A DNA stretch of 62,686 bases from positions 1 to 62,686 of the forward strand of contig JACRNX010000030.1 in the NCBI GenBank assembly GCA_016214755.1. The letters are read 5' to 3'. Shown here one piece after another: positions 13,304 through 42,069 of the stretch; position 1 is the stretch's first letter, and every line of letters begins with the position of its first letter. The notes under the pieces were generated by a model that saw nothing but the letters and a program-made list of their open reading frames with translations, did not search any database and was not told the origin of the DNA. Source of the stretch: Candidatus Falkowbacteria bacterium (GTDB lineage Bacteria; Patescibacteriota; Patescibacteriia; UBA11705; JABHMO01). The translations under genes and the position numbers were made by a program.

Positions 13304-14944
13304 TCAAAGTCGAAATCTTCTTTCCACTTCCTGCTTGTTGAAATAGTCCTCGATGTGTTTTTTGGCGGCGTTGGTTTTGACGAATTTAAGCCATTCGTAA
13401 CTGGGGCCGTCTTTCGCGCGGTCGACGGTTATCTGGACGACGTCATTGGTCGCTAATTGATGGTCGAGAGACACCTGGATGTCATTGACAACCGCGCCGG
13501 CGCATTTATTGCCGATTTCCGAATGGATGTGATAAGCAAAATCAACCGGCGTGGCGCCCGAGGGCAAAGAGATAACGTCGCCTTTCGGGGTATAGACGTA
13601 AATGCGGCTGTTGAGTATCTCGGAAGAAAACTTCGCCCAAAATTCCTCGTCATTTTTATACTGTTGCTGTTTTAGCAACAATTCTTGAATCCAAGGCGGA
13701 ATTTTCTTCTTTAGATTTTTATAGTACCAATGGGCGGCAATGCCGTAATTCGCTTCTTCATTCATTGCTCTGGTTCTGATTTGGAATTCTGTCGCCCGGC
13801 CGTTCAGCCCAAAAACAGTGGTATGCAAACTTTGATAATGATTATTTTTGGGAGCGGCGATGTAATCTTTAAACCGGCGGTGCCTCGGCCGCCAGAGCCG
13901 GTGGATGATGCCAACTATCCGATAGCAATCATCCACTGAATTCACGATTACGCGCAAGGCGAAAACATCGCAGATATCGTCGAAACTTTTTTTCTTCGCT
14001 TTCATTTTAGTATAGATGCTGTAAAAGTGCTTAAAGCGGCCGTCGATTTGGCAGGCAATACCCGCGTCGGCAGCCGCTTTTTCTAAGATATTTTTTGTTT
14101 TTTGAATATATTTATCGCGATTTTTCTTTTCGTCAATATTGAATCGGCGCGAAATTTTTTCGTATTCTTCTGATTCGAGGATTTTGAATGAATAGTCCTC
14201 CAATTGCCAGCGCAGTTTCCAGATTCCGAGAAGATCGGCGAGGGGCGCGAGAATTTCTTTTGATTCAATGGCGCAGATTTTTAACGCGTCTTCCGAGGGC
14301 AGAGTGCGATTTTTCAAGCGGTCAATGTTGGAACACATTTTAATGATAATAACTCGGAGATCCGCCGCCATGGCGACAACCATTTCGCGCAAATGGGATA
14401 TGTATTGCTGGTTGTTCGGGGCTTTTATCCAAAGAAGTTTTTGAAAATGTTGCACCAGTTCGGCTATTTCTTTATTTGATATTTCCGCGATCTCTTCGAT
14501 AGTGACGTGACAATGATAGGGGAGTTCGTGCATAAGCGCGGTGCAGACAGCCGTCAAACCAATTCTGATACTCGCGACTTTCAACGCCGTGCGGTATGAG
14601 TGGTCGAATCGTCCTCTATCCTCGCGCAATTTTTGTTCAGCGTAGTTATAGCATTTCACGAGAACGCCGATTTCCGCCCCTAATTTATTTTCAATTTTCG
14701 CGTGCAAATTCTCATCTCGCTTTGCCAAATCAAAAAATAAACACGCGCAAACGCATTCCACTTGCGCCTTTTCTTCGGCGGCGATTATCGCGGCTTCAAC
14801 CGCTTGTTCATGCAGTATTTTTCTTTCGCTTGAATCGAAACGTTCAAGTTCATCATTGAGCAGCTGGTAAGCTTTTTCAATAATTTCAGCGGAAATCGTC
14901 GGTTGCTTTTCTTTAATTATTTCTATAATTTTGCCAATATCCAT
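13304..14944 (-). CDS. Second RelA/SpoT homologue with a degenerate HD domain
   Basis: Synthetase and TGS motifs are conserved (GRFKHFYSIYTK, DVFALRVIV, HYQSLHT, EFQIRT, VYTPKGDVISLPSGATPVDFAYHIH). The HD dyad position reads LMHELPYH and there is an extra N-terminal extension. Confidence 0.88.
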   Translation of the reverse strand: MDIGKIIEIIKEKQPTISAEIIEKAYQLLNDELERFDSSERKILHEQAVEAAIIAAEEKAQVECVCACLFFDLAKRDENLHAKIENKLGAEIGVLVKCYNYAEQKLREDRGRFDHSYRTALKVASIRIGLTAVCTALMHELPYHCHVTIEEIAEISNKEIAELVQHFQKLLWIKAPNNQQYISHLREMVVAMAADLRVIIIKMCSNIDRLKNRTLPSEDALKICAIESKEILAPLADLLGIWKLRWQLEDYSFKILESEEYEKISRRFNIDEKKNRDKYIQKTKNILEKAAADAGIACQIDGRFKHFYSIYTKMKAKKKSFDDICDVFALRVIVNSVDDCYRIVGIIHRLWRPRHRRFKDYIAAPKNNHYQSLHTTVFGLNGRATEFQIRTRAMNEEANYGIAAHWYYKNLKKKIPPWIQELLLKQQQYKNDEEFWAKFSSEILNSRIYVYTPKGDVISLPSGATPVDFAYHIHSEIGNKCAGAVVNDIQVSLDHQLATNDVVQITVDRAKDGPSYEWLKFVKTNAAKKHIEDYFNKQEVERRFRL

Positions 14945-28650: not shown

Positions 28651-30756
28651 ATGCTTGTCAACAAGATCCTGAATCGAGTTCAGGATGACAAATTTGGTTC
28701 GCCGGAAGAAAATTTAGCCGCGGTGGCGAAACAGGCGGGCTTGGAGAAAGAAGATCCGCGGATTATCGTCGCTCGATTCATCAAATGGTTTCTCGGTATT
28801 ATCGGCGCCATCGCGTTTATCATCGTCCTTTATGGCGGCTACACCTACATGACATCAGCCGGCGATCCGGAGAAAGTAAGGAAAGCAGAGGCAATATTGA
28901 AAAACGGCGTCATCGGGCTGATTATTATTTTCGCCGCTTATTCAATTACGGTTTTTGTGTTTAACATGTTATCGGTGAAAGAACCGTCTGGGACAGGATT
29001 GACGACCGCCGGCAGTGGACAGCTCGCCGGCAGTCCGTATGGATTGTCGAAAGGCGCGTTCGGCACGGTGATTCAAAGCCAGTATCCCCTGCCGGAGCAA
29101 ACCGGCGTGCCGCGCAATACCATGATTTTGGTGACTTTCAAAGCGCCGTTTGCCATTGATTCGCTGATTGACGTCAGTAAAAATGGCGATTGTCCAAAAG
29201 ATGACAAAGGCGCGTTGATAAAAAATTGCGGGGCAATTAAAACGGCCGCGTTCCGCGTTTATCAATGCGCGGATATGTTAAAAGAAAAATATTCTGATGA
29301 TAAAAACGCGACTTGCTTTAATAAAGAAATTTTTGATTTGGCGGATGAGAGCAAATTGGTTTCCGGTTATGGAATCGTAACCGAGGATTCTAAGACGATA
29401 ATTTTTAACCCATACGGCGACTCAAAAGAACAGCATTTGGGCAATGAGTTTGAAGATGTGCCATATATCGTCTATTTGACCGGCAAGATAATGCGGCAGG
29501 ATAATCCGGCGAAGTCCATTTTCACGACACAATATCCTGACCATAAGTGGCGGTTCACTACCAGCACGATTTTGGATTTGACGCCGCCTAAAGTCAGTTC
29601 AGTGGTGCCGGCTAATGTCGTTTACCCGATTAAGTGTCCGGGTGTTGGTTGCGCGGACGTTGATTCCAGCGGCAAGGTCTATTTGAATCAAATGGTTTAC
29701 ATTCATTTTAATGAACCAGTGATTCCGCCGCTCACGCAGACGCAGGATTGCACGATCGCTGATGATGACAATGAGGCGCAACTTGTTAACAACAAAAAAA
29801 TAGGCAGTTGTTTGACGATGCATGTCCCAGGTAAATGGAAAGTGGGAATTAATGGCTATCAAACAATCCAGTTCATTCCCACTACGCCGTGCGAAGGCGT
29901 TGAGAAAAATTCTTGCGGTAATCCGGTCTATTGTCTGCCGGCGAATTCGCAATTAATTGGTAAGGCCTTGGCGGCGAAAATTGTCGGCGGCGTTAGCATG
30001 CCCGGGACCGGTATTATGGATATGGCCGCCAATTCTTTGGATGGCAATGGCAACGGCAAGTCCGATGGGCCCGGCCCAATAGACGCTGACCCGAATAATA
30101 AAGACGCGATGCTCGATAGTTATTTTTGGGATTTTATAACTGGCGACAAATTGGATTTGATTGCGCCATGGGTGACCAGTTTGGAACCGAACAATAATAC
30201 CGCAGGCATTACGGACGTGAATCTTCCGTTATCCGCGATGTTCAGCGAATCAGTGGACGCCTATTCTGTTGACACGGAAATAAAATTAACTGGCTATAAC
30301 TCTGATGGAAAACAATTTGACGGCTGGTTTGACCCGAATCTTGGGAAAGAGGTTATTACGGAAAAAGTCGGCGACAAGGAGGTCTCGTCTGAAAAAGTTT
30401 TAGACAACAAAGCGGTGATTAGCCACGGCCCGTTTGAAGAATATATCGAAGGCCCTTCTCCATTGTACACGCCGGTTATTGGTTCAGAAGTAAAAGACAC
30501 GCGCCAGAATTGTTTCAGCCCGACCAAAGACGGCGCGGCGAAGGCGGAAGAAACAACTATTTTAAATAGCGAATGCGGGGTAAAAGATGCGGCAGGGGAG
30601 GTAAAAATACCTGGCGTCTCTTGTTGTCCGCAAGACGGAACTTATAAATTAATAGGGGACACAGGCGAAGAATGCACAACGCCTTGCCCGACAGGTTACA
30701 ACAAAGTAATAAAAGATAAAAAAGAAGAATGTATAATGCCGAAGGTTGTTAAGTAG
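28651..30756 (+). CDS. 701-aa surface protein: N-terminal TrbC/VirB2-like two-helix domain plus Ig-like (SbsA/Big_5-like) ectodomain and a Cys-rich tail
   Basis: ..IVARFIKWFLGIIGAIAFIIVLYGGYTYMTSAGDPEKVRKAEAILKNGVIGLIIIFAAYSI.. followed by beta-rich repeats (TPPKVSSVVPAN.., LIAPWVTSLEPNN..). The first 14 codons are a REP palindrome, so the start is uncertain (in-frame GTG at 28723). Confidence 0.8.
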   Translation: MLVNKILNRVQDDKFGSPEENLAAVAKQAGLEKEDPRIIVARFIKWFLGIIGAIAFIIVLYGGYTYMTSAGDPEKVRKAEAILKNGVIGLIIIFAAYSITVFVFNMLSVKEPSGTGLTTAGSGQLAGSPYGLSKGAFGTVIQSQYPLPEQTGVPRNTMILVTFKAPFAIDSLIDVSKNGDCPKDDKGALIKNCGAIKTAAFRVYQCADMLKEKYSDDKNATCFNKEIFDLADESKLVSGYGIVTEDSKTIIFNPYGDSKEQHLGNEFEDVPYIVYLTGKIMRQDNPAKSIFTTQYPDHKWRFTTSTILDLTPPKVSSVVPANVVYPIKCPGVGCADVDSSGKVYLNQMVYIHFNEPVIPPLTQTQDCTIADDDNEAQLVNNKKIGSCLTMHVPGKWKVGINGYQTIQFIPTTPCEGVEKNSCGNPVYCLPANSQLIGKALAAKIVGGVSMPGTGIMDMAANSLDGNGNGKSDGPGPIDADPNNKDAMLDSYFWDFITGDKLDLIAPWVTSLEPNNNTAGITDVNLPLSAMFSESVDAYSVDTEIKLTGYNSDGKQFDGWFDPNLGKEVITEKVGDKEVSSEKVLDNKAVISHGPFEEYIEGPSPLYTPVIGSEVKDTRQNCFSPTKDGAAKAEETTILNSECGVKDAAGEVKIPGVSCCPQDGTYKLIGDTGEECTTPCPTGYNKVIKDKKEECIMPKVVK

Positions 30757-30804
30757 ATTCGAGATTAAAGATTAAAGATAAAAAAATACAGAGCCGCGCC
30801 TTAC

Positions 30805-30923
30805 CGTCATTGCGAGGAGTCCCGCTAAGGCGGGACGACGAAGCAATCTCGAGACTATAGACGCTGGGATTGCAGAGTTTATCCCGAACTTGTTGAGGGA
30901 TCGTCGGACTCCTCGCAATGACG
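30805..30923. repeat. 119-bp composite palindrome with perfect 18-bp arms (CGTCATTGCGAGGAGTCC / GGACTCCTCGCAATGACG)
   Basis: The arms at 30805-30822 and 30906-30923 are exact reverse complements. The element lies between the two pilin-domain genes. Confidence 0.8.
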
Positions 30924-31018
30924 TGAAAAAAAGAACGCCTGTCTGCAGGCAGGCTCACCATGGATGACAAATGTACTGAACTCGGGATGACAATACGAGT
31001 TACTAAAAAAGTTAAAAC

Positions 31019-34000
31019 ATGTTTGCGCGATTGAAAAAAGATTCAAGATTCTTGATAGCCGTGGTTGGCGCGGTGATTATTTTCAGTTTGTTCGCGTTCA
31101 GCGCGCTGGACATTGTCCATGCGCAGGGAACGCCGGAAGAGGGGCTGGCGCTGACTGGCACGGCGGCTGGACTGCAAGCCGGACAAGACCTCCGCGTAAT
31201 CATCGGCAACATCATCAAAATTATTCTGGGATTTTTAGGCGTGCTCGCTTTATGCATTGTTCTTTACGCTGGTTTTTTGTACATGACTTCTGGCGGCGAT
31301 CAAGAGAAAGTGCAGAAAGCGCGGCGGTGGCTGGTGAACGGCGCGATCGGTTTGGTCATTATTTTTTCCGCTTACGCCATTACTTCGTTCATCATCAATA
31401 AACTGAAAACGGCGGTCAGCGGCGAGGAAGCGTCAATTGCCGGCGGCGGAGGAGAGGGTGGACTGGGCATCGGCGGCATCATGGTGTTCACCGCCGGGCC
31501 GATCACGCCCAACACGCCGGCGGCCATCAATTATCCGGTCAAAGTATTTTTTAACAAAGGAGTGGATTCGAAAACAATAAATAAAGATAATGTCCAAATA
31601 ATTAAAAAGGGCGCTAAGGGCAAAGTGGTAAAAACATTAGCGCCGATTGAGGTGATTGAAAAAGGCGGCCAGGGCGCGGACAGTTTAAGCAAGATTCTCG
31701 TTAGCGACGACCAGTTCACGGGCTGGGATGTCTGTTTAACCGATACTTCTTCCGAGAGCACCAAAAAAATATCCGAGGGATACACGCCGATGTCAATGAT
31801 TTTTGATATTAGTGAATTAAAAGGTAAGTTGCCGTCTTCAGCAACGTATAAATTTGAAAACAAAAATTCGCCGGGCGGAAGATTCACGATTAGCTGCGGT
31901 GACAAAAATAATCCGGCGAAAAAAATCATAAAAGAAAAATGGGCCACGTCAGATAAACCTTATACCCAAAAAGTGAAAAATTCTTTAGAACTGCCTAAGG
32001 AATGTTTCAACAATGTCGCTGACAATCTGTTGTATATTCAGTGGAAGAGAGCGGGCGGCGCTTGCATTAAATTTGATTACATGGCGCTGGAAATGGCGTA
32101 TGAAGATTACACTGGCGCCGAGTCCGCGGTCAGCGGCGGTTTTAACGTCAGCGGTTCAACCGTGAGATTCCTGCCAGCTGATGATTGCAAAGATCCTGCT
32201 TGCAAAGGACAAAAATGTTTTGAAAAAAATACTGATTACAAAGTAGTTTTAAAGCCAAATGTCATTAAATCAAACACTGGCATTGGTTTGTCTTGCGCCG
32301 TTGGTAGTGTCTGCCTGCATGAATTTTCGACTAACGATGTCTGCGACGTCACCGCGCCGGCTGTTTCTTTCATCGAGCCGTGGAATGGCGCGAAAGTCAG
32401 CCAGGACGCGGATGTTGATGTAACAGTGAAGGCGATTGATGACGGCGGAGTGGATTACATTGATTTTTTGGTGGACAGCGTGTTTCAGGATAAAGCGACG
32501 CCGGCCAGCGGTAAAAACGAGCAAGAATTTTACGGCTATTTTTCGTGGAATACCGAGGATATTGTTTTAGATCCAGTGACGAAAAAAGCGGTTAAAAAAT
32601 TAAAAGCAGAAGCCGAGGACTTGGACAACCATTTGGCGAGCAAGGAAATTGAGGTAACGGTTTTGCCGGCATATTGTTTTGACAAAGAGGGCGCGATTAT
32701 ATGTGATAAAGACGGCACGCATCCTGAATGCGGCAAGTGTGATGGATCTGATTGCGTGAAAGATGATGATTGCGCTGGCGTCTGCAATAAAAAGTGTGTT
32801 GACGCAGAAGCGAAGCAATGCAAAGTTAATGCTGATTGCGCGTCCGGCGTGGCGTGTAAAGGCACTTGCGAGACATTGCCGGTTATCACCAATGTCAGTC
32901 CAGATATAGCCGGCGCGGGAAATTATGTAACGATTTTTGGTAAAGGATTTTTGTCATATAAAGAAGGAGTAAGCCAAGCGTTTTTCACTGGCGCGGCCGG
33001 AGGATATTTGGAAGCAAAGATTGTTAATTGCGTGGCAGGCAAGCCGGCCTGGTCATATAATCAAATAATCGTAAAAGTGCCTGAACTGGCTGGCACTGGC
33101 CCAATTAAAATAATAAATTCAAGCGGAAAGGAAGATGATACACAGGACGAGGATGGCTGGCAGGGCGAGTTTGAGTTCGACGCGAAAATAAAATATCCGG
33201 GTTTGTGCGCGGTCCAATTACAGAGTTGTACGCCGTCAAATATTGTTTCATGCGACGAAGGCGCGGTCGGCGATTCAGTCAAAGCAATAGGAATAAATTT
33301 CGGGCATGAGATGGCTGATTATGACATGATTTATTTCGGCAGCGCGCCGTTCGGGCAAGGCGCGGGCTTTGATTGGAAGGATAAGGAAATAAAAGGAATC
33401 CAAATACCAATAGTTAATCCTGCTAGTTATGGTGTGACTGTGGCCAAAGAGGATTCGAAGGATATTAATAAAAAAATTTACAGCAATCCGGTTTATTTTC
33501 ATGTTATTCCAGCCGCCAATCTGCCGAAGATTGATAAAGTCAGTCCAATGCCCGCGCCGTTTGGCCAGATGGTAACGATTAGCGGGCAATATTTTGGAGC
33601 AAACGTCGGTCATGTTGAATTTAGGCGATACATTAACGGCCAGCCGTATGATTGGGTCGCGGGTTTGGCCTGCGCCAGTGGAAGCTGGTCAGACAGTGAA
33701 ATCATTATTAAAGTGCCGAAAGAAATCGCCAATACTATTGCCAAAATCGAAGGCGCGGACGCTTTTAGCAAGGATTATCAAATTATTGTTTATAACTCGA
33801 AAGGGTTGGCCAGCAAGCCGGTTGATTTTGAAATTAACAACAAGGCGCCGGGGCCGGGCTTGTGTTCGATCAGTCCAAACAATGGGCCAGTCGGGACGAA
33901 ATTTAATTTATCCGGTGAAAATTTTGGCGAGTCAAAAGATTATTACATAAAATTTCCTGCGCCTGACAAAAAAAATGTTAATGTCACTGCTTTCAAAACA

Positions 34001-37000
34001 TGGGGAGAAAAACTGATTGAAAACGCGGCCGTGCCGGCTGGCGCGATTTCCGGCGCTGTGTTTTTGAGTTCAAACGCCGCGGACGTGGATATTGACAGCA
34101 ATAGTTTGAACTTTAGCGTCGGCAGTTGCAAAAAGGACTCTTGCGACGAAGGATTGACTTGCTGTCCAACTGGTATTTGTCAGACAAAATGCGAAGCAGA
34201 AGTGGAATATTCGCCATCAGAATATATGTGGTTAGTCAGCACTGGTCCCTTACCGATTTTGCCGCAGGTGTTGGAGCGAAGTTGCATCAAAGGCGTGTAT
34301 TCGCAATCGCCATCGCCATTCAAATCAACGGAAGACGCGTGTCCCAATGGTTTGATCTCCGCCACTTTCAATACGGCGATGAAAAAAGATAGTTTGAATA
34401 ATAATATCGAAGTGCGGCGCTGTTTTCTCAAAGATGGTGGCAAATGCGATTTCAGTATTTGTAAGAAAGGAGAAAAATTGGGAGACATAATTTGCGCCGG
34501 CGGCGAGGTTAAATGTCTGAAAAACGGCACGTGCGTTGCCAAAAGCGTCAGTCAAATAACGGCCAATGATTTTAGCGAGTCAAATTTGTCTATTAGTTGC
34601 AAAACGCCGGCCGGCGCGGATTGTTCTGTCGGCGCGAAGGACTGCCAATGTGTCAAAGGTTCGCTAGTTTCGCAGTTCAATTTATTTGACGCGCTGTCAG
34701 AATTAGCGGCCGGAGAAGTTCCGTTGATAAAGTCGGAAGACGACAAAGGAAAAATTATTCCTTATCAACTATTCGAAAATACTTGGTATCAGGTAATTAT
34801 CAAAGGCGGAACCATGAATGACGAGAATCAGTTCGAGGGCGGAGTCGTCTCGTCGGACGGAAAATCAATGGCTAGCGATTATGCCTGGACGTTCAAAACG
34901 AAAAATGAAAAATGCGTTCCTGATAATTTACTGTTGAAGCCGCTTATCGGTTTAATCAGCGATTTATACGGCATGCAAAAGTATATTGTTTCAGGACAAT
35001 ATCAATGTCAGGAAATCGCGCTTAACAATGAAAAATGGGAGTGGGGAGCGCAGGAGAGTTATAAAGAGAAAATTAAATTCAGCGGATATGGATGCGTTAA
35101 TGGAATTGAAGGGCAAATTTGTCCAGCCAACACGAACGATAAACGGCCGGACATTGGGTTTTACGGGTTGTTTACTGAAAAAGCGTCCACATTAAATTTA
35201 GAAACGCCGCTTGGTGAACCAGCGATTATTTTTGCGGACGCGGTGCCGACAGTTGATTCATTCATGAAAACCGCTTTTGACAAAATGCATAAAGAAGGCG
35301 GACTGGAAGTTAAATTCGCGGCGCCAAAAGTGATTTCTTATTATCCAAATTGCCAATCAGCTTGCATTAACAGCGAGCTCGGCGCGCATTTCAGCGCTCA
35401 AATGGACGCGGCTAGTTTGACGCCAAATAGCGTTAAACTTTATTCCTGCGCCAGCGCTGATTGCATTAATTTGACGTCAGTAGCGTTAACGTCGGGAGAA
35501 ATTGATTATCAATGGACAGCGCCTGACGTGACAAATAAAAGTCAGATAAGCAATTTAAAAGTCAATCCGACAAATGATTTGTCATCCAATACTTTTTATC
35601 GAATGGTAATCACAAATGGCGTTCAAAGTTCAAGCTTGAAACCGCTGGCGGGCTTGAATTATACAATTGCGAACGCGCCCAAAAGCGATTGCGCTGATTG
35701 GAAAGATAATGACGCTGATAATGGCATTGATGTCAGCGGCGGTTATATATACAAAGGCAACGATAAAAAAATATTAGATTTCGTTTGCGGTTGCTATAAT
35801 ACATCTGCGACAGGTGAACCAGCGCAGAAATTCGTCTCGTATAATAAAGTTGACGCTAAAGTGGCTTGTCCGACGGGAGTAAGTTTTTCTTGTTTTAACA
35901 TCAAGGAATCAATCATTACCGACCCGGTGGATTTGAAAAAAATTGTCGAGGATTATAATTATTTCAGCCCAGACAGCCAGTGCGCGAGCGAAGCGGATTT
36001 TGAAATCGGCAAGTCGGGGCAGTACGACGCGTTCAGTTGGGTGTTCAAAACCAAAGCGTCTTCGGAAAAATGCGAGATTGACAAAGTCGATGTCGTGCCA
36101 GTTAGTTACACGACCGAAAAGCAAGGCGAAAAGATTGAATATTGGTCGAATCCATATTCAGCGCCTGATGAATGTTCGGATAAAGGACAGCTTTTAGACC
36201 CGTTTGATTATGCGTGGAAGTGGGATAGCACAGCCAAAGTCATTGTTAACAATATTGCGATCCCTGCAATAGCTGAAATTACTAACACGAAAATAATGGA
36301 CGTACCTGAATATTGCACAGAGAATTGTTTGGCAAAAGGCGGCACGCCCGCTGGTTCTGTTTGTGGCGACGGCGCAGTCGGCTCTGGCGAAGAGTGCGAT
36401 GATAAAAATATCGTGAACGGAGATGGCTGTTCGGATAAATGTCTATTAGAACCGTTTAAAAATTGCACTGCCGATCAATTAAAAAATAAAGCAACGGGTT
36501 GTTGCGGCAACGGCACGCCAAATGAAGCGATTACAAATATTTACGGAAAAACATATAACGAAGAATGCGACGCGGGTTGCGAATACAAAGACGGGAGCGG
36601 TAAGGCCTGCGCGCCGTCCGCGGACAAACCAGAATGTGTCTGCGTATCCAAAGAATCATATTGTTCAAATGGCTGCTTAAATATTGGCACGGCGGCTGGT
36701 TTTGTCTGCGGTAACAGTAAAGTCGAAGCCGGCGAAGATAAAGATGATGGAAATAATAAAGATGGCGACGGCGTGAGTTCGATTTGTTTGAATGAAGGCG
36801 CGAAGTATAAAACAGGAGAGAAAGCGGCGTTATGCGGTGACGGTAAAATTGATTACGGCGAAGAATGCGAGGCGATTGCGAAGACAGCAGGCGGTTCAAT
36901 ATCATTAGATAATAATCCATATTGCAATGAAAAATGCTTATGGCAGGGATTTCCTGCTTGCGGAAAATGCGAAAAGAAGGTCGTTGATCCAGCGACAGGT

Positions 37001-39928
37001 AAGGAAACAGTTACAGCATGTTTACCGACAGATCCAGCTTGCGGCTGTTATAAATGTTGCGGCAACGCGCAGTTGGAGGATTATGATAATACGGATAAAG
37101 ATGACAATATAAATACGGATTTTGATGAAGAATGCGAAGCGACAGCGTTGTCTTGCGTGAAAAAGACAAAGACAGCGGACGGGAAAGAGAAGATCGAGTC
37201 GTGTGATTATTTGAAGGAGACGAATTGCGTCTGCGAGTTAAAATTTCCTGAATGGTGCAGTCCAAAATGCTTGAATCTGGGCTCGTCGTATAAATATGAT
37301 TCGTATTGCGGTGATGGATATGTTGGCAATGAAAAGCTTGTTAGTGAAAAGCCCGGCACTAAATACCTTTCCCTTGGCGAGGACGAACAATGCGAAGATG
37401 CCGGCTCAATGAGCGGCGCGCCATATCAAGTGGCGATAATAAAAGAAATAATGGATTTTTTCGCGGTGGATTCTGCGAACAAACCGATATTTTCATTCAA
37501 CGCCGCAACAAAATTTGTCGAAGGCGCGACGAAAATTATTGCGACAGCGACAGTGGATAAAGACGGAAAAAGTGTCGGGAAAACAGGAGAAGCTGATTTA
37601 AAATTCCGCACGAACGACCCGGACGTGCTCGCGAAATTTTGCTCGACTGAATTATGGCTTTCCGCAGGCAGTTCGCCGACAGAGAATCAGCAGAATGTCT
37701 GCCGCAACGCGCTGTTGTCATTTAATTTTGACAAACAATTAGACACGGCAAGCGCCAGCGTCGTGCTGTACAAAGTCGTTGGTAGTAATTCTGAACCGGT
37801 TGAATCGTCTTTCGCGGCCACGAACGTCGGCGGCAAGACGCATATCATTGTTACGCCCAAGTCGCTTTTGGATGCAACGAAAGATTATAAAGTTAAAATG
37901 TTCAATATAAAAAATGTCTGCGGATTTTATTTCTCGCCGTGGACGTTAAATTTCAAGACAGGAAGCGCTGTCTGCAAGCTCGATAAAATTAAAATCGAAC
38001 CAGCGGAAGAATTTGCGTTCGCGCCGAATCAAATTCATCTATTCCAAGCGTTGGCGATGAGCGGCGAGGAGGCGATAAACGAGGCAGTAGGTCTTTATGA
38101 GTGGACTTGGACATGGACGGCGGACGACACGACGATTGTCAGCGCTCCAGTTGCTTGCGCTTTTCCTCAAAATAGTAATGTGTGTGCATCGGGAACAGGG
38201 GTTGATAGTCCGACTGTCAATGTGACAAACCAAGCAAAGAACGGAACGGCGACGATTTTCGCTGAAACAAAAATCACGAAAGATGTTAATGTTGATGCGA
38301 CGGATGAAAATGCGAAAAGCACGGTAGGAGAAACAACTTCCGGCAGCGCCAAACTACAAGTTCTGATTTGTGAGAATTTATGGCAGCCGACAACATTGCC
38401 GGCGAATTGGGATACTTGGAAAATTACCAGTACAAATTTATCTGAGCCGGTTTCAACGCATGTTTACGAGAAAAATTACAACATCGGCTTGTTGTACTGC
38501 CGCGATTTCGGCCAGCCAAATAATAAAACCGACGACTTGCCGAAGGTGAAAATTATAACTATGGGCGGCTGTCAAAACGGAATTGATGACGATATGGACG
38601 GAAAAATAGACGCACTCGAGACGAAAATATTTACGGACAAGGTTAATATATCAATTCAGTCAAAAGATGTAGGGATGTCTTTCAGTAGTGAACCAGTAAA
38701 TTTTGTAAAGCAGGGAAAAACAACAGCAATAACTTTAAAGTTCACGTTGACTAAGCCAGTTCAGAATTTATTTACATTGAATATAGAATTTTTTAATAAT
38801 GACACCTCGATAGGTAGCAAGAATTTAATTGGAATTAACAATAATATTCCGAAATATTTTCCTTTTGACCAATTTCTTAATTATGGAAATGTGGCATTTA
38901 AAGTTATAGTGAAGGAAGAGAATAGCATTATTACTACTACAATGGGATTTTTAGAAAATAATGATTCTGATCCTAAGTGCAAGACCAAGGACGACAGTGA
39001 AATCGCAGTAGGAAATTTATTGACAGAATATTTTTTGACGCGCGACGAGACAGAAACAGATAATTCAACTGATGTTATCGCTCTCCGCATCTACAAAAAT
39101 CCAGAATTTTTGGCGCCGTCGGTTTGGTACCAAAAATACGCGCCGAATCCAGCGGACACGACCAGCAGTTTGTCTCTCGACTGCCAAAAAGACGAGTTTG
39201 GAGAATTTTGCTATTCAGCGGCCGTGGACGGGCCGTCGGTTTATGTCGGCGCGAGCAATCTGGCGGGAGGTACTACTCCGGGAATTGATATTTATAACAA
39301 CATCCATATTTTAAGCCATTCGCAAAGCGCGAACGAGGCGACATTAAATATCTTTAATCAAATAGTGGCGTATTTGCAGTTCAATTTTAATCTTGGCGGT
39401 TTGTCGAAGGTCTCTTTAATTCGCGACACGCAGAGGATTCAAGATATGGTGTGGACGCGGCTTGTTATTGACCAATACAAACAAAAGCATAATGGCGAGG
39501 CGCCGCAACTTGAATCAGGCACTTATGAACGGGGATTGTCGTTTAGTGTTTGGCCATCTTGGCAGAACGAATTAGGCGGCGCGTTGAAGCAGACATTGCC
39601 GGTTGATCCGTTGAATCATTTCAAATGGGAAAAGCCGAGCTTTGTTGGCGCTGGAATCGCCTGCCTTGGTTCTGTTAAATGTCCGGACGCGGCTTTCCAG
39701 TGCGTTATTCCCAATAAATATTGCGTTAAATGTCCAACCGGATTTGACGCGCTGACCTGCTATGACAGCAACACGCAAAAGTTTTTCAATTATTATTCAA
39801 ATCCAGACGAGCATCCGGTTTACTCTTATCAAGCTGACCCAGAAAATGCAAAAAACAAATCAGCGTATAAATTGGACTTTATGCTGGAGATAACGAGTAA
39901 GATATATAAAATAACGACGGGGTTTTAG
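31019..39928 (+). CDS. Giant (2969 aa) cell-surface protein: signal peptide, TrbC/VirB2-like two-helix domain, Ig-like and IPT/TIG domains, CGDG..EECD Cys-rich repeats
   Basis: Signal peptide ..ALDIVHA-QG. Pilin-like segment IIKIILGFLGVLALCIVLYAGFLYMTSGGDQEKVQKARRWLVNGAIGLVIIFSAYAI. IPT-like PVITNVSPDIAGAGNYVTIFGKGF, PKIDKVSPMPAPFGQMVTISGQYFG, PGLCSISPNNGPVGTKFNLSGENFG. Cys-rich repeat CGDGAVGSGEECDDKNIVNGDGCSDKC plus five related repeats. Confidence 0.9.
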   Translation: MFARLKKDSRFLIAVVGAVIIFSLFAFSALDIVHAQGTPEEGLALTGTAAGLQAGQDLRVIIGNIIKIILGFLGVLALCIVLYAGFLYMTSGGDQEKVQKARRWLVNGAIGLVIIFSAYAITSFIINKLKTAVSGEEASIAGGGGEGGLGIGGIMVFTAGPITPNTPAAINYPVKVFFNKGVDSKTINKDNVQIIKKGAKGKVVKTLAPIEVIEKGGQGADSLSKILVSDDQFTGWDVCLTDTSSESTKKISEGYTPMSMIFDISELKGKLPSSATYKFENKNSPGGRFTISCGDKNNPAKKIIKEKWATSDKPYTQKVKNSLELPKECFNNVADNLLYIQWKRAGGACIKFDYMALEMAYEDYTGAESAVSGGFNVSGSTVRFLPADDCKDPACKGQKCFEKNTDYKVVLKPNVIKSNTGIGLSCAVGSVCLHEFSTNDVCDVTAPAVSFIEPWNGAKVSQDADVDVTVKAIDDGGVDYIDFLVDSVFQDKATPASGKNEQEFYGYFSWNTEDIVLDPVTKKAVKKLKAEAEDLDNHLASKEIEVTVLPAYCFDKEGAIICDKDGTHPECGKCDGSDCVKDDDCAGVCNKKCVDAEAKQCKVNADCASGVACKGTCETLPVITNVSPDIAGAGNYVTIFGKGFLSYKEGVSQAFFTGAAGGYLEAKIVNCVAGKPAWSYNQIIVKVPELAGTGPIKIINSSGKEDDTQDEDGWQGEFEFDAKIKYPGLCAVQLQSCTPSNIVSCDEGAVGDSVKAIGINFGHEMADYDMIYFGSAPFGQGAGFDWKDKEIKGIQIPIVNPASYGVTVAKEDSKDINKKIYSNPVYFHVIPAANLPKIDKVSPMPAPFGQMVTISGQYFGANVGHVEFRRYINGQPYDWVAGLACASGSWSDSEIIIKVPKEIANTIAKIEGADAFSKDYQIIVYNSKGLASKPVDFEINNKAPGPGLCSISPNNGPVGTKFNLSGENFGESKDYYIKFPAPDKKNVNVTAFKTWGEKLIENAAVPAGAISGAVFLSSNAADVDIDSNSLNFSVGSCKKDSCDEGLTCCPTGICQTKCEAEVEYSPSEYMWLVSTGPLPILPQVLERSCIKGVYSQSPSPFKSTEDACPNGLISATFNTAMKKDSLNNNIEVRRCFLKDGGKCDFSICKKGEKLGDIICAGGEVKCLKNGTCVAKSVSQITANDFSESNLSISCKTPAGADCSVGAKDCQCVKGSLVSQFNLFDALSELAAGEVPLIKSEDDKGKIIPYQLFENTWYQVIIKGGTMNDENQFEGGVVSSDGKSMASDYAWTFKTKNEKCVPDNLLLKPLIGLISDLYGMQKYIVSGQYQCQEIALNNEKWEWGAQESYKEKIKFSGYGCVNGIEGQICPANTNDKRPDIGFYGLFTEKASTLNLETPLGEPAIIFADAVPTVDSFMKTAFDKMHKEGGLEVKFAAPKVISYYPNCQSACINSELGAHFSAQMDAASLTPNSVKLYSCASADCINLTSVALTSGEIDYQWTAPDVTNKSQISNLKVNPTNDLSSNTFYRMVITNGVQSSSLKPLAGLNYTIANAPKSDCADWKDNDADNGIDVSGGYIYKGNDKKILDFVCGCYNTSATGEPAQKFVSYNKVDAKVACPTGVSFSCFNIKESIITDPVDLKKIVEDYNYFSPDSQCASEADFEIGKSGQYDAFSWVFKTKASSEKCEIDKVDVVPVSYTTEKQGEKIEYWSNPYSAPDECSDKGQLLDPFDYAWKWDSTAKVIVNNIAIPAIAEITNTKIMDVPEYCTENCLAKGGTPAGSVCGDGAVGSGEECDDKNIVNGDGCSDKCLLEPFKNCTADQLKNKATGCCGNGTPNEAITNIYGKTYNEECDAGCEYKDGSGKACAPSADKPECVCVSKESYCSNGCLNIGTAAGFVCGNSKVEAGEDKDDGNNKDGDGVSSICLNEGAKYKTGEKAALCGDGKIDYGEECEAIAKTAGGSISLDNNPYCNEKCLWQGFPACGKCEKKVVDPATGKETVTACLPTDPACGCYKCCGNAQLEDYDNTDKDDNINTDFDEECEATALSCVKKTKTADGKEKIESCDYLKETNCVCELKFPEWCSPKCLNLGSSYKYDSYCGDGYVGNEKLVSEKPGTKYLSLGEDEQCEDAGSMSGAPYQVAIIKEIMDFFAVDSANKPIFSFNAATKFVEGATKIIATATVDKDGKSVGKTGEADLKFRTNDPDVLAKFCSTELWLSAGSSPTENQQNVCRNALLSFNFDKQLDTASASVVLYKVVGSNSEPVESSFAATNVGGKTHIIVTPKSLLDATKDYKVKMFNIKNVCGFYFSPWTLNFKTGSAVCKLDKIKIEPAEEFAFAPNQIHLFQALAMSGEEAINEAVGLYEWTWTWTADDTTIVSAPVACAFPQNSNVCASGTGVDSPTVNVTNQAKNGTATIFAETKITKDVNVDATDENAKSTVGETTSGSAKLQVLICENLWQPTTLPANWDTWKITSTNLSEPVSTHVYEKNYNIGLLYCRDFGQPNNKTDDLPKVKIITMGGCQNGIDDDMDGKIDALETKIFTDKVNISIQSKDVGMSFSSEPVNFVKQGKTTAITLKFTLTKPVQNLFTLNIEFFNNDTSIGSKNLIGINNNIPKYFPFDQFLNYGNVAFKVIVKEENSIITTTMGFLENNDSDPKCKTKDDSEIAVGNLLTEYFLTRDETETDNSTDVIALRIYKNPEFLAPSVWYQKYAPNPADTTSSLSLDCQKDEFGEFCYSAAVDGPSVYVGASNLAGGTTPGIDIYNNIHILSHSQSANEATLNIFNQIVAYLQFNFNLGGLSKVSLIRDTQRIQDMVWTRLVIDQYKQKHNGEAPQLESGTYERGLSFSVWPSWQNELGGALKQTLPVDPLNHFKWEKPSFVGAGIACLGSVKCPDAAFQCVIPNKYCVKCPTGFDALTCYDSNTQKFFNYYSNPDEHPVYSYQADPENAKNKSAYKLDFMLEITSKIYKITTGF

Positions 39929-40032
39929 GCATTGTTTAACATCCCCTCCTTGCCAAGGAGGGGAAAGAGGGGAGGTAGACAGGACACCCCCTCTGTGTCT
40001 CCCCCTTGGTAAGGGGGAGAGAAACGAAATAT

Positions 40033-40692
40033 ATGCCAAATGAACAAAACAAACCAGAAAACAAAGAGGTTGTTGATATCTTCGCTGGATTGGACCCGGC
40101 GCCAGAGCGGATCAGAAAAGAAATTCCTGAAATGAGACCGCCTGCGGCTTCAATGAGTGATTTTTACGTTCCGCCGGCGCCACCGTATCCTCCGCCACCT
40201 CCGGCGCGCGGCAAATTTTTTATTGTCGCTATTGTCTTAGCAATATTTCTCGCGATAATTGTCATTGGCTTGATTGTTTTGAAATTCGTTTTTGGAATTA
40301 ATTTAGAAAAAATTAAATTTGGAGGAAAATCAGCGCCAGTAGTGGAAAAGGTTGAGGAAGCGATTCCCGTGCCAATAGTTGAAGCGCCGGTGATTGAACC
40401 CGCGATTGAACCGAAGAGCGCGCCAATCATAGAAATGATAAAAGAAGACAGCGACAATGACGGCTTGACAGACGCCGAGGAAACAAACCTTGGAACCAAT
40501 TTATTAAAAATTGATAGCGATAACGACAAGTTGCCTGATTACGATGAGGTGAAAATATATGGCACTGACCCGTTAAGGGCAGACAGCGACGGCGATGGTT
40601 ATCTTGATGGTGAAGAGGTGATCAATGGATATAATCCAAAGGGGCCGGGCAAGTTGTTGAATTTTGAGAAAGCGCTGGAGAAAGTAAAATAG
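40033..40692 (+). CDS. Small TM protein with thrombospondin-type-3-like Ca-binding repeats
   Basis: Start MPNEQNK (the upstream part of the track ORF is a repeat element). Pro-rich segment and a TM helix (FFIVAIVLAIFLAIIVIGLIVL), then DSDNDGLTDAEE..DSDNDKLPDYDE..DSDGDGYLDGEE. Confidence 0.8.
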   Translation: MPNEQNKPENKEVVDIFAGLDPAPERIRKEIPEMRPPAASMSDFYVPPAPPYPPPPPARGKFFIVAIVLAIFLAIIVIGLIVLKFVFGINLEKIKFGGKSAPVVEKVEEAIPVPIVEAPVIEPAIEPKSAPIIEMIKEDSDNDGLTDAEETNLGTNLLKIDSDNDKLPDYDEVKIYGTDPLRADSDGDGYLDGEEVINGYNPKGPGKLLNFEKALEKVK

Positions 40693-40908: not shown

Positions 40909-42069
40909 ATGTTCGATGACATTGATAAAAAACAAACTGCGACGGCGCCGAACGCGCCGGCGGTTTCAAATCAACCAGCCGCGGCCATAGTAAAACCGAC
41001 GGCGCCAAGCGCGGATAGTGCCGAGGCGGCCAACGTCGAAGAAGTCCATACCATGCCAATGGAATATTATCTTGGTTCGCAGACGGCCGAAATGACGAAA
41101 GGCGAAAAAGTGACGAAAAGCGCGGGGCCGGCTGGCGCCTCGGCGCCGAGCAAAAAGAGGATTTTAAACATTGTTATTGTCGCGGTTTTGGCTTTAATCG
41201 TGGCCGGCTCGGCGTTTTTATTGTTCAAAAGTTATGAACAACCGGCGCCCGCGCCGGCTCCAGTAGTGACGTTCGCGCCCACAGTCACGTCAACCGCGCC
41301 GGTAGCAGAACCTGAACCAACGGTTGCTCCTCCTGCGCTAGTGGTAAAAGTTGAAACACCGGCGCCAGTCGCGAAATTCAATCCCGCGGAAATTAAAAAA
41401 TTCACTTTATCTTTAATGAGTGGATTAGACACGGATAAAGACGGATTGACGGACGCGGAAGAAGCGGTGTTCGGCACGAACATAAATCTAAACGACAGCG
41501 ATGGCGATGTTTTTAAAGATAAAGAAGAAATTATAAATTTTTACAGTCCAGTGGATAAAGGAAAAGTCCGTTTATGGGAAAAATTATTCGTCCAATATTA
41601 CGTCAATAAAAATTACGGATATAAAATATTATATCCAATCGCTTGGGTAGTTCAGCCTGTTGATCCTGACGATCCGAAGGACTTGATGATAAGCTCCAAT
41701 CAAAATGAGTTTGTTAATATTGTTGTTTTGGATAAAGACACGAAACAAACATTGGAGGATTGGTATTTGCAAATGGCGCCAGAAGTTAAAAAGGAGGACC
41801 TGAAAAAATACCAAACATTCAGCAAATTGCCGATATTGGAAAGTCCGGACGCTTTCACCGCTTATATTGAGTCCGCGAAAAAAGATAAAGTGTTTGCCGT
41901 TAATTATAATATCGGCTTGAAAGAAGAGGCGAGTTTTCCCGCGGTTTTCCAAACAGTGATAAACAGTTTCGAGTTCGCGCCAATTGAATACACGCCGACG
42001 CCGATTCCATTGACACCGAAGCCAGCGGCGCCGGGTGAAGATACGGGCGAATTGCCGGGTGGGGAATAA
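40909..42069 (+). CDS. TM protein with TSP3-like Ca-binding repeats and a C-terminal beta-rich domain
   Basis: TM helix ILNIVIVAVLALIVAGSAFLLF, a Pro/Ala/Thr linker, DTDKDGLTDAEE..DSDGDVFKDKEE, and a C-terminal domain like that of the 5742..6293 lipoprotein. Confidence 0.8.
   Translation: MFDDIDKKQTATAPNAPAVSNQPAAAIVKPTAPSADSAEAANVEEVHTMPMEYYLGSQTAEMTKGEKVTKSAGPAGASAPSKKRILNIVIVAVLALIVAGSAFLLFKSYEQPAPAPAPVVTFAPTVTSTAPVAEPEPTVAPPALVVKVETPAPVAKFNPAEIKKFTLSLMSGLDTDKDGLTDAEEAVFGTNINLNDSDGDVFKDKEEIINFYSPVDKGKVRLWEKLFVQYYVNKNYGYKILYPIAWVVQPVDPDDPKDLMISSNQNEFVNIVVLDKDTKQTLEDWYLQMAPEVKKEDLKKYQTFSKLPILESPDAFTAYIESAKKDKVFAVNYNIGLKEEASFPAVFQTVINSFEFAPIEYTPTPIPLTPKPAAPGEDTGELPGGE

What the first reader, a model, noticed from the sequence alone, without database searches (positions are those of the whole stretch)
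28651..39928. One TrbC/VirB2-like two-helix membrane module reused as the anchor for three very large Cys-rich surface proteins, at either terminus
- The same ~70-aa segment occurs N-terminally in the 701-aa and 2969-aa proteins (nt about 28762-28981 and 31190-31409). Its consensus is I.G.II..ILG.IG..AL..VLYGG..YMTS.GD.EKV.KA...L.NG.IGLIIIF.AY.
- It also occurs C-terminally in the 956-aa protein (nt about 8596-8830).
- In VirB2-type pilins both termini face outward and the basic loop faces the cytoplasm, so a fusion at either end would display the ectodomain outside. That fits the Cys-rich, Ig-like cargo.
- No T4SS ATPase or channel genes are nearby, so the module seems to serve as a generic display anchor rather than as a conjugative pilin.
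Basis: partly seen in the sequence, partly recalled or inferred. Interest (0 to 1): 0.75.

Follow-up and report, generated by a model that had tools for sequence, protein, structure and literature searches.

The report
Pilin hairpin anchors giant surface proteins
Three very large, cysteine-rich surface proteins of an ultra-small (Patescibacteria) bacterium each carry a complete copy of the small secretion-system pilin of that phylum, apparently as a membrane anchor, and two of them form a gene pair conserved across a whole bacterial class, which may be the cell-attachment proteins not yet identified for this phylum's secretion system.

Summary
Three ORFs each carry one two-helix module that passes Pfam PF18895 (T4SS_pilin) above its curated cut-off: 701 aa, 2969 aa and 956 aa. 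No other copy exists in the window.

The module is homologous to TrbC/VirB2, though only just below the TrbC cut-off. Charge distribution predicts both ends outside and the basic loop inside, so cargo at either end would be extracellular.

The "generic anchor" reading is only partly supported.
- The shared unit is a whole mature pilin, not just two helices.
- The 701-aa and 2969-aa genes are an adjacent pair in 75 of 80 related species (class ABY1), in fixed synteny: lepB-hisS-rpsU-yqeY-pair-two TSP3 membrane proteins-ftsA.
- The pilin part is the most conserved part of the 701-aa family.
- It is homogenised between the two neighbouring genes.
- All five related genomes that could be checked carry VirB4 elsewhere.

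The window's 701-aa copy alone has lost its signal peptide through an in-frame deletion. The 956-aa C-terminal fusion is an independent, lineage-specific event.

Most likely these are pilin-anchored adhesin or coat proteins that still interact through the pilin part. I found no description of these fusions in the papers I could search.

The parts
28651..30756 (+). p701: pilin module, Gly/Ser linker, about 500-aa Ig-like ectodomain and a Cys-rich tail. In this window it lacks the signal peptide.
   Evidence: Pfam PF18895 38 bits and Big_5. AlphaFold2 mean pLDDT 83: helical hairpin aa 36-107, disordered aa 109-128, beta-rich aa 130-625. Foldseek finds only Ig-like stalks, such as LdtMt2 domains A/B at about E 6e-6. 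243 homologous clusters, nearly all PF18895+Big_5.
28753..28983 (+). Pilin module of p701 (aa 35-111): helix 1, basic loop, helix 2
28651..28720 (+). Site of an in-frame loss of about 72 nt that removes the hydrophobic core of the signal peptide present in all 51 aligned orthologues
   Evidence: Protein alignment A2. DNA alignment with the closest relative L085, 72% aa identity. The yqeY stop is at 28635, leaving no room upstream.
31019..39928 (+). p2969: signal peptide, mature pilin, Gly-rich linker, then about 2840 aa of Ig-like (Big_5, Big_7, TIG) and Cys-rich acidic repeats
   Evidence: Orthologues of 2100 to more than 3600 aa follow the p701 orthologue in 75 of 80 loci. Conserved blocks lie at aa 400-1100, 1700-2000, 2300-2500 and 2700-2900.
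31019..31126 (+). Predicted cleavable signal peptide of p2969 (aa 1-36, ...IVHA|QG)
   Evidence: Hydropathy peak aa 12-30. Similarity to p701 and to mature small pilins starts at G37.
31178..31414 (+). Pilin module of p2969 (aa 54-132)
   Evidence: In isolation it scores PF18895 44.3 bits and TrbC 25.6 bits. 63% identical to the stand-alone pilin P0001. AlphaFold2 hairpin, pLDDT 89.
8596..11466 (-). p956: signal peptide (aa 1-27), about 850-aa stalk of Dickkopf_N-like Cys-rich modules (106 Cys), and a C-terminal pilin module
   Evidence: No full-length homologue was found in 5.8 billion clusters.
8599..8850 (-). C-terminal pilin module of p956 (aa 873-956), followed by only 7 residues
   Evidence: PF18895 32.4 bits. 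Its nearest relatives are stand-alone pilins P0052 and P0026 at 51-53% identity, against at most 42% to p701- and p2969-type modules.
40006..40692 (+). Conserved downstream neighbour: single-pass membrane protein with extracellular TSP3 calcium-binding repeats
   Evidence: Pfam TSP3_bac. Sequence. Present downstream in 11 loci where the end of the giant gene is visible.
40909..42069 (+). Conserved downstream neighbour: second single-pass membrane protein with TSP3-like repeats and a C-terminal domain of unknown fold
   Evidence: Present in 8 loci.

Best explanation
The window comes from a Patescibacteria (CPR) chromosome most like class ABY1 (Falkow-/Magasanikbacteria). p2969, p956 and the orthologues of p701 are Sec-exported, disulfide-rich surface proteins. 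Each is held in the cytoplasmic membrane by one complete copy of the phylum's VirB2-like pilin: a short outside peptide, helix 1, a 20-odd-residue basic cytoplasmic loop, and helix 2.

The hairpin starts and ends outside, so cargo can be attached after helix 2 or before helix 1. In p701 and p2969 this puts 600-2850 aa of Ig-like and Cys-rich domains after helix 2, on a flexible Gly-rich linker. In p956 it puts an 850-aa cystine-module stalk before helix 1.

p701 and p2969 are a fixed two-gene unit of the core chromosome, next to two TSP3-repeat membrane proteins and ftsA/ftsZ. The pilin part is not a passive anchor. It is kept under pilin-type constraint and kept alike in the two partners. I therefore infer that the two proteins associate through it with each other and with the cell's stand-alone pilins or T4SS platform, which is encoded elsewhere. 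They would act as the adhesin or coat component of that surface apparatus.

Shown: the homology, the architecture, the conservation, the synteny and the concerted evolution. Inferred: the topology, the extracellular display, pilin-pilin association and the adhesive role.
For: - PF18895 passes its cut-off in all three proteins.
- Link to TrbC/VirB2.
- Stand-alone 100-147-aa Patescibacterial pilins share the same sequence.
- K+R is enriched in the loop, and Cys counts outside are even.
- The AlphaFold2 model shows hairpin, disordered linker and Ig-like stalk.
- Similarity between p701 and p2969 covers exactly the mature pilin.
- The pair is present in 75 of 80 species loci with the synteny lepB-hisS-rpsU-yqeY-pair-TSP3-TSP3-ftsA.
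- The module is the most conserved region.
- Same-locus module identity is 0.61, against 0.487 +/- 0.006 for shuffled pairs. The gene's own partner is the best of 149 modules in 21 of 71 loci. 300-nt DNA repeats are 92% and 85% identical in L074 and L029.
- Related genomes with the pair have VirB4, 5 of 5 in the published table.
- A relative that appears to carry the pair also holds an 8-gene small-pilin array; the link rests only on equal longest-contig lengths (594,201 nt) for P0028 and P0123.
- Published work finds VirB2-like pilins essential in a Saccharibacterium (PMC10633639) and detected no PrgB-type adhesin in Patescibacteria (PMC12102498).
- In the T-pilus both pilin termini face outward and the basic loop faces the lumen (bioRxiv 10.1101/2022.09.25.509369).
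Against: - No T4SS gene or stand-alone pilin lies within the 62.7-kb window. None was recognised next to the pair in 80 related loci, but those flanks were only matched against window genes and scanned for the pilin module.
- The housekeeping context fits a constitutive envelope protein as well as a T4SS accessory.
- Concerted evolution could be a by-product of recombination between adjacent repeats, without selection.
- Structure search of the hairpin is uninformative: no hit below E 0.84, and VirB2/TraA are not in the top 50.
- A sequence-profile search of PDB gives VirB2 only at E 1.6.
- The window's p701 lacks its signal peptide and has 8 K/R in its 45-aa N-tail, so its hairpin may not adopt the normal topology here.
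- Topology rests on a simple charge count, not a dedicated predictor or an experiment.
Confidence: 0.55

Rival explanations
1. Passive display anchor. The hairpin serves only to hold unrelated ectodomains in the membrane, independently of any T4SS or pilus. The proteins are ordinary surface or S-layer-like coat proteins.
For: - No T4SS genes in the window, and none recognised among the pair's neighbours in 80 related loci.
- The housekeeping and cell-division neighbourhood.
- The module works at either terminus and with different cargo: Big_5/TIG, Dickkopf-like, and PKD in L087.
- Tandem 2-15-module proteins show that the hairpin can stay as an integral membrane element.
Against: - The anchor is more conserved than the cargo, including its cytoplasmic loop at 54%.
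- The whole mature pilin is retained, not only the helices.
- The modules of the two partners are homogenised.
- The sequence is indistinguishable from stand-alone pilins, 63% identity to P0001.
Confidence: 0.25
2. True pilus subunits. The fusions are minor, tip or base pilins that VirB4 pulls out of the membrane. They are built into an extracellular VirB2-type filament, which displays the giant ectodomains on the filament.
For: - In solved VirB2 pili both termini face outward and the basic loop faces the lumen, so cargo at either end is geometrically compatible.
- The module is under pilin-type constraint.
- VirB4 is present in related genomes.
- No other adhesin has been detected for the Patescibacterial T4SS.
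- Small pilins are occasionally inserted in the pair: L060, L063, L066.
Against: - No pilus has been shown for these organisms' T4SS.
- From the T-pilus dimensions, each subunit has roughly 640 square angstroms of outer surface (my estimate). Cargo of 600-2850 aa could therefore only be tolerated sparsely or at an end.
- The genes are not linked to virB4.
- The signal-peptide-less p701 here would be a poor substrate.
Confidence: 0.15
3. Artefact: mis-called or frameshift-fused genes (a small pilin gene run into a downstream gene), or decaying pseudogenes.
For: The window's p701 has a deletion in its signal peptide. p956 has no full-length homologue.
Against: - The ORFs are uninterrupted at 701, 2969 and 956 codons.
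- The same fused architecture recurs in 243 protein clusters and 75-80 species loci.
- The AlphaFold2 model is confident across the junction.
- Signal peptide, even Cys counts and Pfam domains are coherent.
Confidence: 0.02

Closest known systems
Stand-alone VirB2-like pilins of Patescibacteria (Pfam PF18895; Wang et al. 2023 Cell, PMC10633639; Quinonero-Coronel et al. 2025, PMC12102498)
   Same: Same domain: all three proteins pass PF18895, and identity to 100-147-aa pilins reaches 63%. Same layout of signal peptide, short outside peptide and two helices with a basic loop.
   Different: The known pilins are small, occur in arrays of 2-11 genes and often lie near virB4. Here the mature pilin carries 600-2850 aa of ectodomain at its C-terminus or 850 aa at its N-terminus. 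The genes sit in a housekeeping locus, and two of them form a conserved pair. The papers I read do not discuss such fusions.
TrbC/VirB2 conjugative pilins of Gram-negative T4SS (Pfam PF04956; Agrobacterium VirB2, RP4 TrbC)
   Same: Two-helix hairpin after a long signal peptide and a basic inter-helix loop. Sub-threshold but consistent sequence similarity. In the T-pilus the termini face outward and the loop faces the lumen. Membrane topology with termini outside and loop inside is from my own knowledge of the VirB2 literature; the paper (PMC2944537) could not be read here.
   Different: The loop here is about 8-10 residues longer. The PF04956 cut-off is not reached. There are no neighbouring virB3/virB4 genes. 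No VirB2 or TrbC with a large fused ectodomain is known to me.
Type IV pilin-like anchoring of large proteins (minor pilins GspK, TcpB and CofB; archaeal 'bindosome' substrate-binding proteins with class III signal peptides)
   Same: Same logic (from my own knowledge): a filament-subunit membrane segment carries a large extracellular domain, which can dock onto or cap a pilin assembly.
   Different: An unrelated pilin superfamily with a single N-terminal helix and a prepilin-peptidase site. No such site exists in the three proteins.
Surface adhesins of Gram-positive conjugation systems (e.g. PrgB of pCF10)
   Same: Large, Ig-like-rich surface proteins of a monoderm that could provide cell-cell contact for a pilus-poor T4SS. 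The Patescibacterial T4SS is of the monoderm MPF-FATA type.
   Different: PrgB-type adhesins are LPXTG/sortase-anchored and encoded in the transfer operon. No LPXTG motif is present here, and the published survey detected no PrgB homologue in the phylum.
Mbov_0395-family pilin-like conjugal transfer protein of Mycoplasma ICEs (NCBIfam NF045849)
   Same: Weak similarity across the whole hairpin: 31-35 bits for p701 and p2969.
   Different: Below the curated cut-off of 40 bits. Those are small stand-alone proteins of mobile elements.

Membership tests
Pfam PF18895 T4SS_pilin (Patescibacterial VirB2-like pilin) | Score above the curated gathering threshold (26.6 bits) | tested here: met
   38.0, 37.5 and 32.4 bits. 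44.3 bits for the isolated p2969 module.
Pfam PF18895 T4SS_pilin (Patescibacterial VirB2-like pilin) | Signal peptide followed by a two-helix hairpin with a basic connecting loop | tested here: met
   Met for p2969 and p956. Met for 51 of 51 p701 orthologues, but not for the window's p701, whose signal-peptide core is deleted.
Pfam PF18895 T4SS_pilin (Patescibacterial VirB2-like pilin) | Small stand-alone protein (about 100-150 aa), usually in arrays and/or near virB4 | tested here: not met
   Lengths are 701, 2969 and 956 aa. No arrays and no virB4 in the window, and no extra pilin array beside the pair in the related loci.
Pfam PF18895 T4SS_pilin (Patescibacterial VirB2-like pilin) | Assembly into a T4SS-dependent filament or channel | not testable with these tools
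   Needs microscopy, biochemistry or genetics.
Pfam PF04956 TrbC/VirB2 | Score above the gathering threshold (27.9 bits) | tested here: not met
   16.8 bits for whole p2969 and 25.6 bits, E 1.4e-5, for its isolated module. 39 of 67 relatives hit at E<=0.01, best 8.7e-8. This indicates homology, but not membership by Pfam's rule.
Pfam PF04956 TrbC/VirB2 | Profile or structure similarity to an experimentally characterised VirB2 | tested here: inconclusive
   hhalign against Agrobacterium C58 VirB2 gives probability 51%, E 1.5e-4, 58 columns in register. The PDB profile search gives VirB2 at E 1.6. Foldseek on the hairpin is non-specific.
Pfam PF04956 TrbC/VirB2 | Encoded with virB3/virB4 in a mating-pair-formation operon | tested here: not met
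NCBIfam NF045849 (Mbov_0395 pilin-like conjugal transfer protein) | Score above the curated cut-off (40 bits) | tested here: not met
   31.0, 34.7 and 16.3 bits.
Type IV pilins / pseudopilins | Class III signal peptide with a prepilin-peptidase site (G|F/M-T-L-x-E) | tested here: not met
   The motif is absent in all three proteins.
Sortase-anchored Gram-positive adhesins (PrgB-like) | C-terminal LPXTG sorting signal | tested here: not met
   No LPxTG-like motif.

The most novel reading that the evidence does not exclude
The conserved p701/p2969 pair is the adhesive tip or base complex of the Patescibacterial T4SS surface apparatus. These would be the first VirB2-type pilins that carry their own giant adhesin domains. 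The two pilin modules would be kept matched by gene conversion so that they co-assemble with the cell's variable small pilins. This would identify the adhesin not yet detected for the Patescibacterial T4SS, which in the one system tested is required for epibiotic growth. It would also define a new way of building an adhesive conjugative-type pilus in a monoderm.
Probability: 0.2. Interest if true: 0.8.

Novelty: new variant of a known kind. Interest (0 to 1): 0.6.

Why it matters
The T4SS and its VirB2-like pilins are essential for the epibiotic life of the one Patescibacterium that has been tested genetically. What they contact and how is unknown, and a survey of 3,035 genomes detected no PrgB-type adhesin. 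A class-wide gene pair fuses that pilin to giant Ig-like and Cys-rich ectodomains. Its pilin part is the most constrained region and co-evolves between the partners. That gives a concrete, testable candidate for the contact-making component.

It also shows that the VirB2 hairpin behaves as a portable module: stand-alone, in tandem arrays within one protein, or fused at either end to cargo. That is relevant to pilin evolution and to engineering surface display in monoderms. If the module proves to be only an anchor, the finding is a modest annotation point.

Tried and rejected
- Exact-sequence look-up of p701 in public assemblies: not on record.
- Single-protein scan of GTDB genomes with p701: no relative found. 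The alignment-based scan worked.
- Full-length homologue search for p956: only itself.
- Profile search of PDB with the pilin family: the top hits are spurious summed matches to designed 'Pizza' repeat proteins; VirB2 appears only at E 1.6-6.
- Foldseek of the isolated hairpin against PDB: only generic helical hairpins, no discrimination.
- Foldseek of the p701 model: Ig-like stalks only, no enzymatic domain.
- tblastn of a small CPR pilin against 72,556 plasmids: no match. These pilins are therefore not plasmid-type TrbC genes.
- R388 accession not held.
- From reading the sequence I suspected that the p2969 C-terminus might contain a type IV pilin-like head domain. Pfam at E<=1 gave nothing, so I dropped the idea.
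- Promoter and terminator scan between p701 and p2969: nothing informative.
How common C-terminal fusions are remains unmeasured beyond the 150 best representatives, where p956 is the only one.
- The paper on VirB2 membrane topology (PMC2944537) is not held.
Full report
**1. What is in the sequence**

The three ORFs exist as described: 28651-30756(+) 701 aa (p701), 31019-39928(+) 2969 aa (p2969) and 8596-11466(-) 956 aa (p956). Each contains one stretch that passes Pfam PF18895 'T4SS_pilin' above its gathering score of 26.6 bits:
- p701 aa 43-102, 38.0 bits.
- p2969 aa 60-125, 37.5 bits.
- p956 aa 881-946, 32.4 bits.

The three stretches align without difficulty, at 53% and 34% identity to the p2969 copy. 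A profile made from them finds no fourth copy in the six-frame translation of the window. BLASTP of p701 against p2969 gives one strong match: 54% identity over 93 aa, E 8e-23. It runs from the residue after the predicted signal-peptidase site of p2969 (..VHA|QG) to the end of helix 2, and nothing significant follows. The shared unit is therefore a whole mature pilin, not merely two hydrophobic helices.

- p2969 has Big_5, Big_7, TIG and cysteine-rich acidic repeats.
- p701 has Big_5.
- p956 has at least five Dickkopf_N-type cystine modules.
- Cys content is 2.6%, 4.0% and 11.1%, with even Cys counts outside the module.

**2. What the module is**

Searches with the module return tens of thousands of proteins. 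A full HMM scan of 1.84 billion cluster representatives gave 57,298 hits at E<=1e-3 and 16,524 at E<=1e-10. The word-index search returned only 100-147-aa stand-alone proteins, those with a source name being from Patescibacteria. They show the layout signal peptide, short peptide, two helices, and are up to 63% identical to the p2969 module.

These are the 'VirB2-like pilins' of the Patescibacterial T4SS described in the literature:
- They were detected with PF04956 and PF18895 in 1,948 VirB4-containing assemblies.
- They lie near virB4 in 1,135 of those.
- They often occur in arrays of 2-11 genes (PMC12102498).
- They are essential in Southlakia epibionticum (PMC10633639; review PMC12857230).

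The link to classical TrbC/VirB2 is real but weak:
- The isolated p2969 module scores 25.6 bits (E 1.4e-5) on TrbC, against a cut-off of 27.9.
- 39 of 67 family members hit TrbC at E<=0.01, and TrbC is by far the second-best family.
- hhalign of the family profile against Agrobacterium C58 VirB2 aligns 58 columns in register. E is 1.5e-4 and probability 51%. The CPR loop is about 8 residues longer.

Sequence-profile search of PDB (VirB2 at E 1.6) and Foldseek on a confident AlphaFold2 hairpin (pLDDT 89; no hit below E 0.84) do not discriminate. A helical hairpin is too simple a fold for that.

**3. Topology**

Over 64 stand-alone family members, K+R averages 3.4 in the 23-residue loop. It averages 0.8 and 0.3 in the 15 residues before helix 1 and after helix 2. 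By the positive-inside rule this places the loop in the cytoplasm and both ends outside. From my own knowledge of the VirB2 literature, this matches the topology reported for VirB2 in the inner membrane; the paper could not be read here. In the solved T-pilus the termini lie on the outside of the filament and the basic loop faces the lumen (bioRxiv 10.1101/2022.09.25.509369).

p2969 and p956 have ordinary N-terminal signal peptides. This rests on a simple charge count, not on a dedicated predictor or an experiment.

**4. An anomaly in this window**

All 51 aligned orthologues of p701 have an N-terminal signal peptide (consensus ..KITASCF..LAVFLF....AQ). The window's p701 does not. Against its closest relative (72% aa identity) the gene has lost about 72 nt in frame. 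The preceding gene, yqeY, stops 15 nt upstream of the p701 start codon, so no alternative start exists.

The remaining 45-residue N-tail carries 8 K/R. Helix 2 with its basic N-side could still export the ectodomain as a signal-anchor. Helix 1 may then not span the membrane normally. This is inference. The rest of the ORF is intact.

**5. The pair is conserved across a class**

The p701 family has 243 clusters in the 5.8-billion-cluster collection. Nearly all are PF18895+Big_5, 546-1134 aa long. Source names include Falkow-, Buchanan-, Uhr- and Parcubacteria, and NCBI calls some 'pilin' or 'Ig-like domain-containing protein'.

An alignment-based scan of one genome per GTDB species matched more than 580 stretches, of which 80 loci were kept. 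Findings from those loci:
- In 75 of 80, the p701 orthologue is immediately followed by a giant ORF that starts with the pilin module. Complete examples are 2097-3460 aa, and many are cut by the 10-kb flank. All five loci without a recognisable giant ORF are cut by a contig end shortly after the p701 orthologue. One of the 75 (L024) has p2969 similarity downstream of the p701 orthologue but no pilin module was detected in it.
- Gene order is fixed: lepB (66 of 80), hisS (68), rpsU (72), yqeY (61), p701 (80), p2969 (75). Where the end of the giant gene is visible, two single-pass TSP3-repeat membrane proteins and ftsA follow.
- No other pilin-module ORF lies within 10 kb in most loci.

This is a core chromosomal unit in a housekeeping neighbourhood, not a mobile T4SS locus. 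Five of the genomes appear in the published table. All five are class ABY1 and all have VirB4. One of them also has TrsD, three coupling-protein hits, VirB1 and three VirB2 hits, none of the VirB2 hits near virB4. One relative also carries an 8-gene small-pilin array, with no VirB4 within 10 kb. That it is the same genome as the P0123 pair is inferred only from the equal longest-contig length (594,201 nt) recorded for P0028 and P0123.

**6. The module is under more constraint than an anchor needs**

Mean pairwise identity within the p701 family:

| Region | Identity |
|---|---|
| Helix 1 | 56% |
| Loop | 54% |
| Helix 2 | 54% |
| Three ectodomain thirds | 35-46% |
| Linker | 24% |

The modules of the two adjacent genes are also more alike within a genome than orthologues are between genomes. 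Same-genome identity is 0.61. Between genomes it is 0.49 for p701-type modules and 0.51 for giant-type modules. Shuffled pairings give 0.487 +/- 0.006. A gene's own partner is the best of 149 modules in 21 of 71 loci.

In L074 and L029 the two modules are 300-nt direct DNA repeats, 92% and 85% identical. In the window they have diverged to 53% aa identity with no DNA repeat. This is concerted evolution. It may be selected, or it may be a by-product of recombination between neighbours.

**7. Structure of p701**

AlphaFold2 with 52 homologues gives mean pLDDT 83. The model shows a helical hairpin (aa 36-107), a disordered Gly/Ser linker (aa 109-128), a beta-rich body (aa 130-625, mostly pLDDT above 90) and a low-confidence Cys-rich tail. 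Foldseek against PDB finds only Ig-like stalks: LdtMt2 domains A/B at E around 1e-6 to 1e-5, then weaker matches to Saf and T6 pilins and CopC. No catalytic fold appears.

**8. p956**

This protein is a separate case. Its module is closest to another sub-lineage of small pilins (P0052 and P0026, 51-53% identity; 'ALAMFIYGG..LISGG'). It is at most 42% identical to p701- and p2969-type modules. No full-length homologue was found.

Among the 150 best representative hits to the module:
- 126 are tandem multi-module proteins.
- 12 are small single-module pilins under 200 aa.
- 2 are single-module proteins of 213 and 266 aa with little extra sequence.
- 9 are N-terminal module plus large cargo.
- Only p956 itself has a C-terminal module after large cargo.

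The module has therefore been fused to cargo at least twice independently. The C-terminal arrangement looks rare, though a full census was not possible because the metagenome scan failed.

**9. Interpretation**

The evidence supports hairpin-anchored, extracellular, disulfide-rich proteins whose anchor is a bona fide VirB2-like pilin. It does not support calling the hairpin a generic anchor. Retention of the whole mature pilin, its high conservation including the cytoplasmic loop, and its homogenisation between partners all point to specific contacts. These could be with each other, with stand-alone pilins, with lipid, or with T4SS parts encoded elsewhere.

Whether the proteins stay in the membrane or are lifted into a filament cannot be decided here. 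The outward-facing termini of VirB2 in pili make decoration possible. From the T-pilus dimensions, a filament surface offers only about 640 square angstroms per subunit (my estimate), which argues for sparse or terminal incorporation at most.

The published survey detected no PrgB-type adhesin in the phylum, so these fusions are natural candidates for that role. I found no paper describing them. That claim is limited to the searchable library.

**10. Verdict**

This is a new variant of a known kind: a known pilin family in an undescribed fused, paired and conserved form. Interest is moderate to high for people working on T4SS or on CPR biology.

Noticed in passing
window 28651-28720: The window's p701 has lost about 72 nt in frame, removing the hydrophobic core of the signal peptide that all 51 aligned orthologues keep. 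The rest of the 701-codon ORF is intact.
   Followed up: yes
P0241, P0321, P0340 and 123 others among the 150 best representative hits: 'Polypilins': single ORFs made of 2-15 tandem pilin hairpin modules (for example 820 aa with 8, and 1775 aa with 15). Linkers between some adjacent modules (about 10-16 aa) look too short to hold signal peptides, so such modules would stay covalently linked as 4-30-helix membrane proteins.
   Followed up: partly
L074 9922-10221 / 11733-12032; L029 9971-10270 / 11787-12086: 300-nt direct DNA repeats, 92% and 85% identical, cover the pilin modules of the two adjacent genes. This indicates recent gene conversion between them. No such repeat exists in the window.
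   Followed up: yes
L087 9925-16481: In another Patescibacterial locus an 8-module polypilin is followed by a 155-aa pilin, a 383-aa pilin-PKD fusion and a PKD-rich 718-aa protein. No VirB4 lies within 10 kb. The pilin module is thus fused to other kinds of Ig-like cargo elsewhere.
   Followed up: partly
window 58776-62686 (+), runs off the end: A fourth giant Cys-rich ORF (more than 1300 aa within the window) has an N-terminal hydrophobic segment and a weak CBM_4_9 match but no pilin module. Not all large Cys-rich surface proteins of this organism use the pilin anchor.
   Followed up: partly
window 40006-40692 and 40909-42069: Two single-pass membrane proteins with Pro-rich cytoplasmic N-termini and extracellular TSP3 (calcium-binding) repeats lie directly downstream of the pair. 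They are conserved there in relatives, upstream of ybeY, dgkA, ftsA and ftsZ.
   Followed up: partly
window 11622-13070 (-) and 13304-14944 (-): Two tandem RelA/SpoT-type genes (HD_4 + RelA_SpoT + TGS) sit next to topA and dprA.
   Followed up: no
P0247 (718 aa): A protein with one pilin module at aa 165-243 and another at aa 640-716, flanking a roughly 400-aa segment. The predicted ectodomain would be anchored at both ends.
   Followed up: no
L006-L008, L011, L013 and many other loci: Many GTDB-species records that carry the pair are titled 'uncultured Gammaproteobacteria bacterium' (others 'Udaeobacter', 'Kapaibacterium'). Their gene content and synteny are those of Patescibacteria, so the record titles look like placeholders or mislabels.
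   Followed up: no
L003 6465-10402: An array of eight consecutive small pilin genes (seven annotated as PF18895, one more found by the local profile) follows a solute-binding protein gene. No VirB4 lies within 10 kb. The array may belong to the same relative genome as the P0123 pair (equal longest-contig lengths only).
   Followed up: partly
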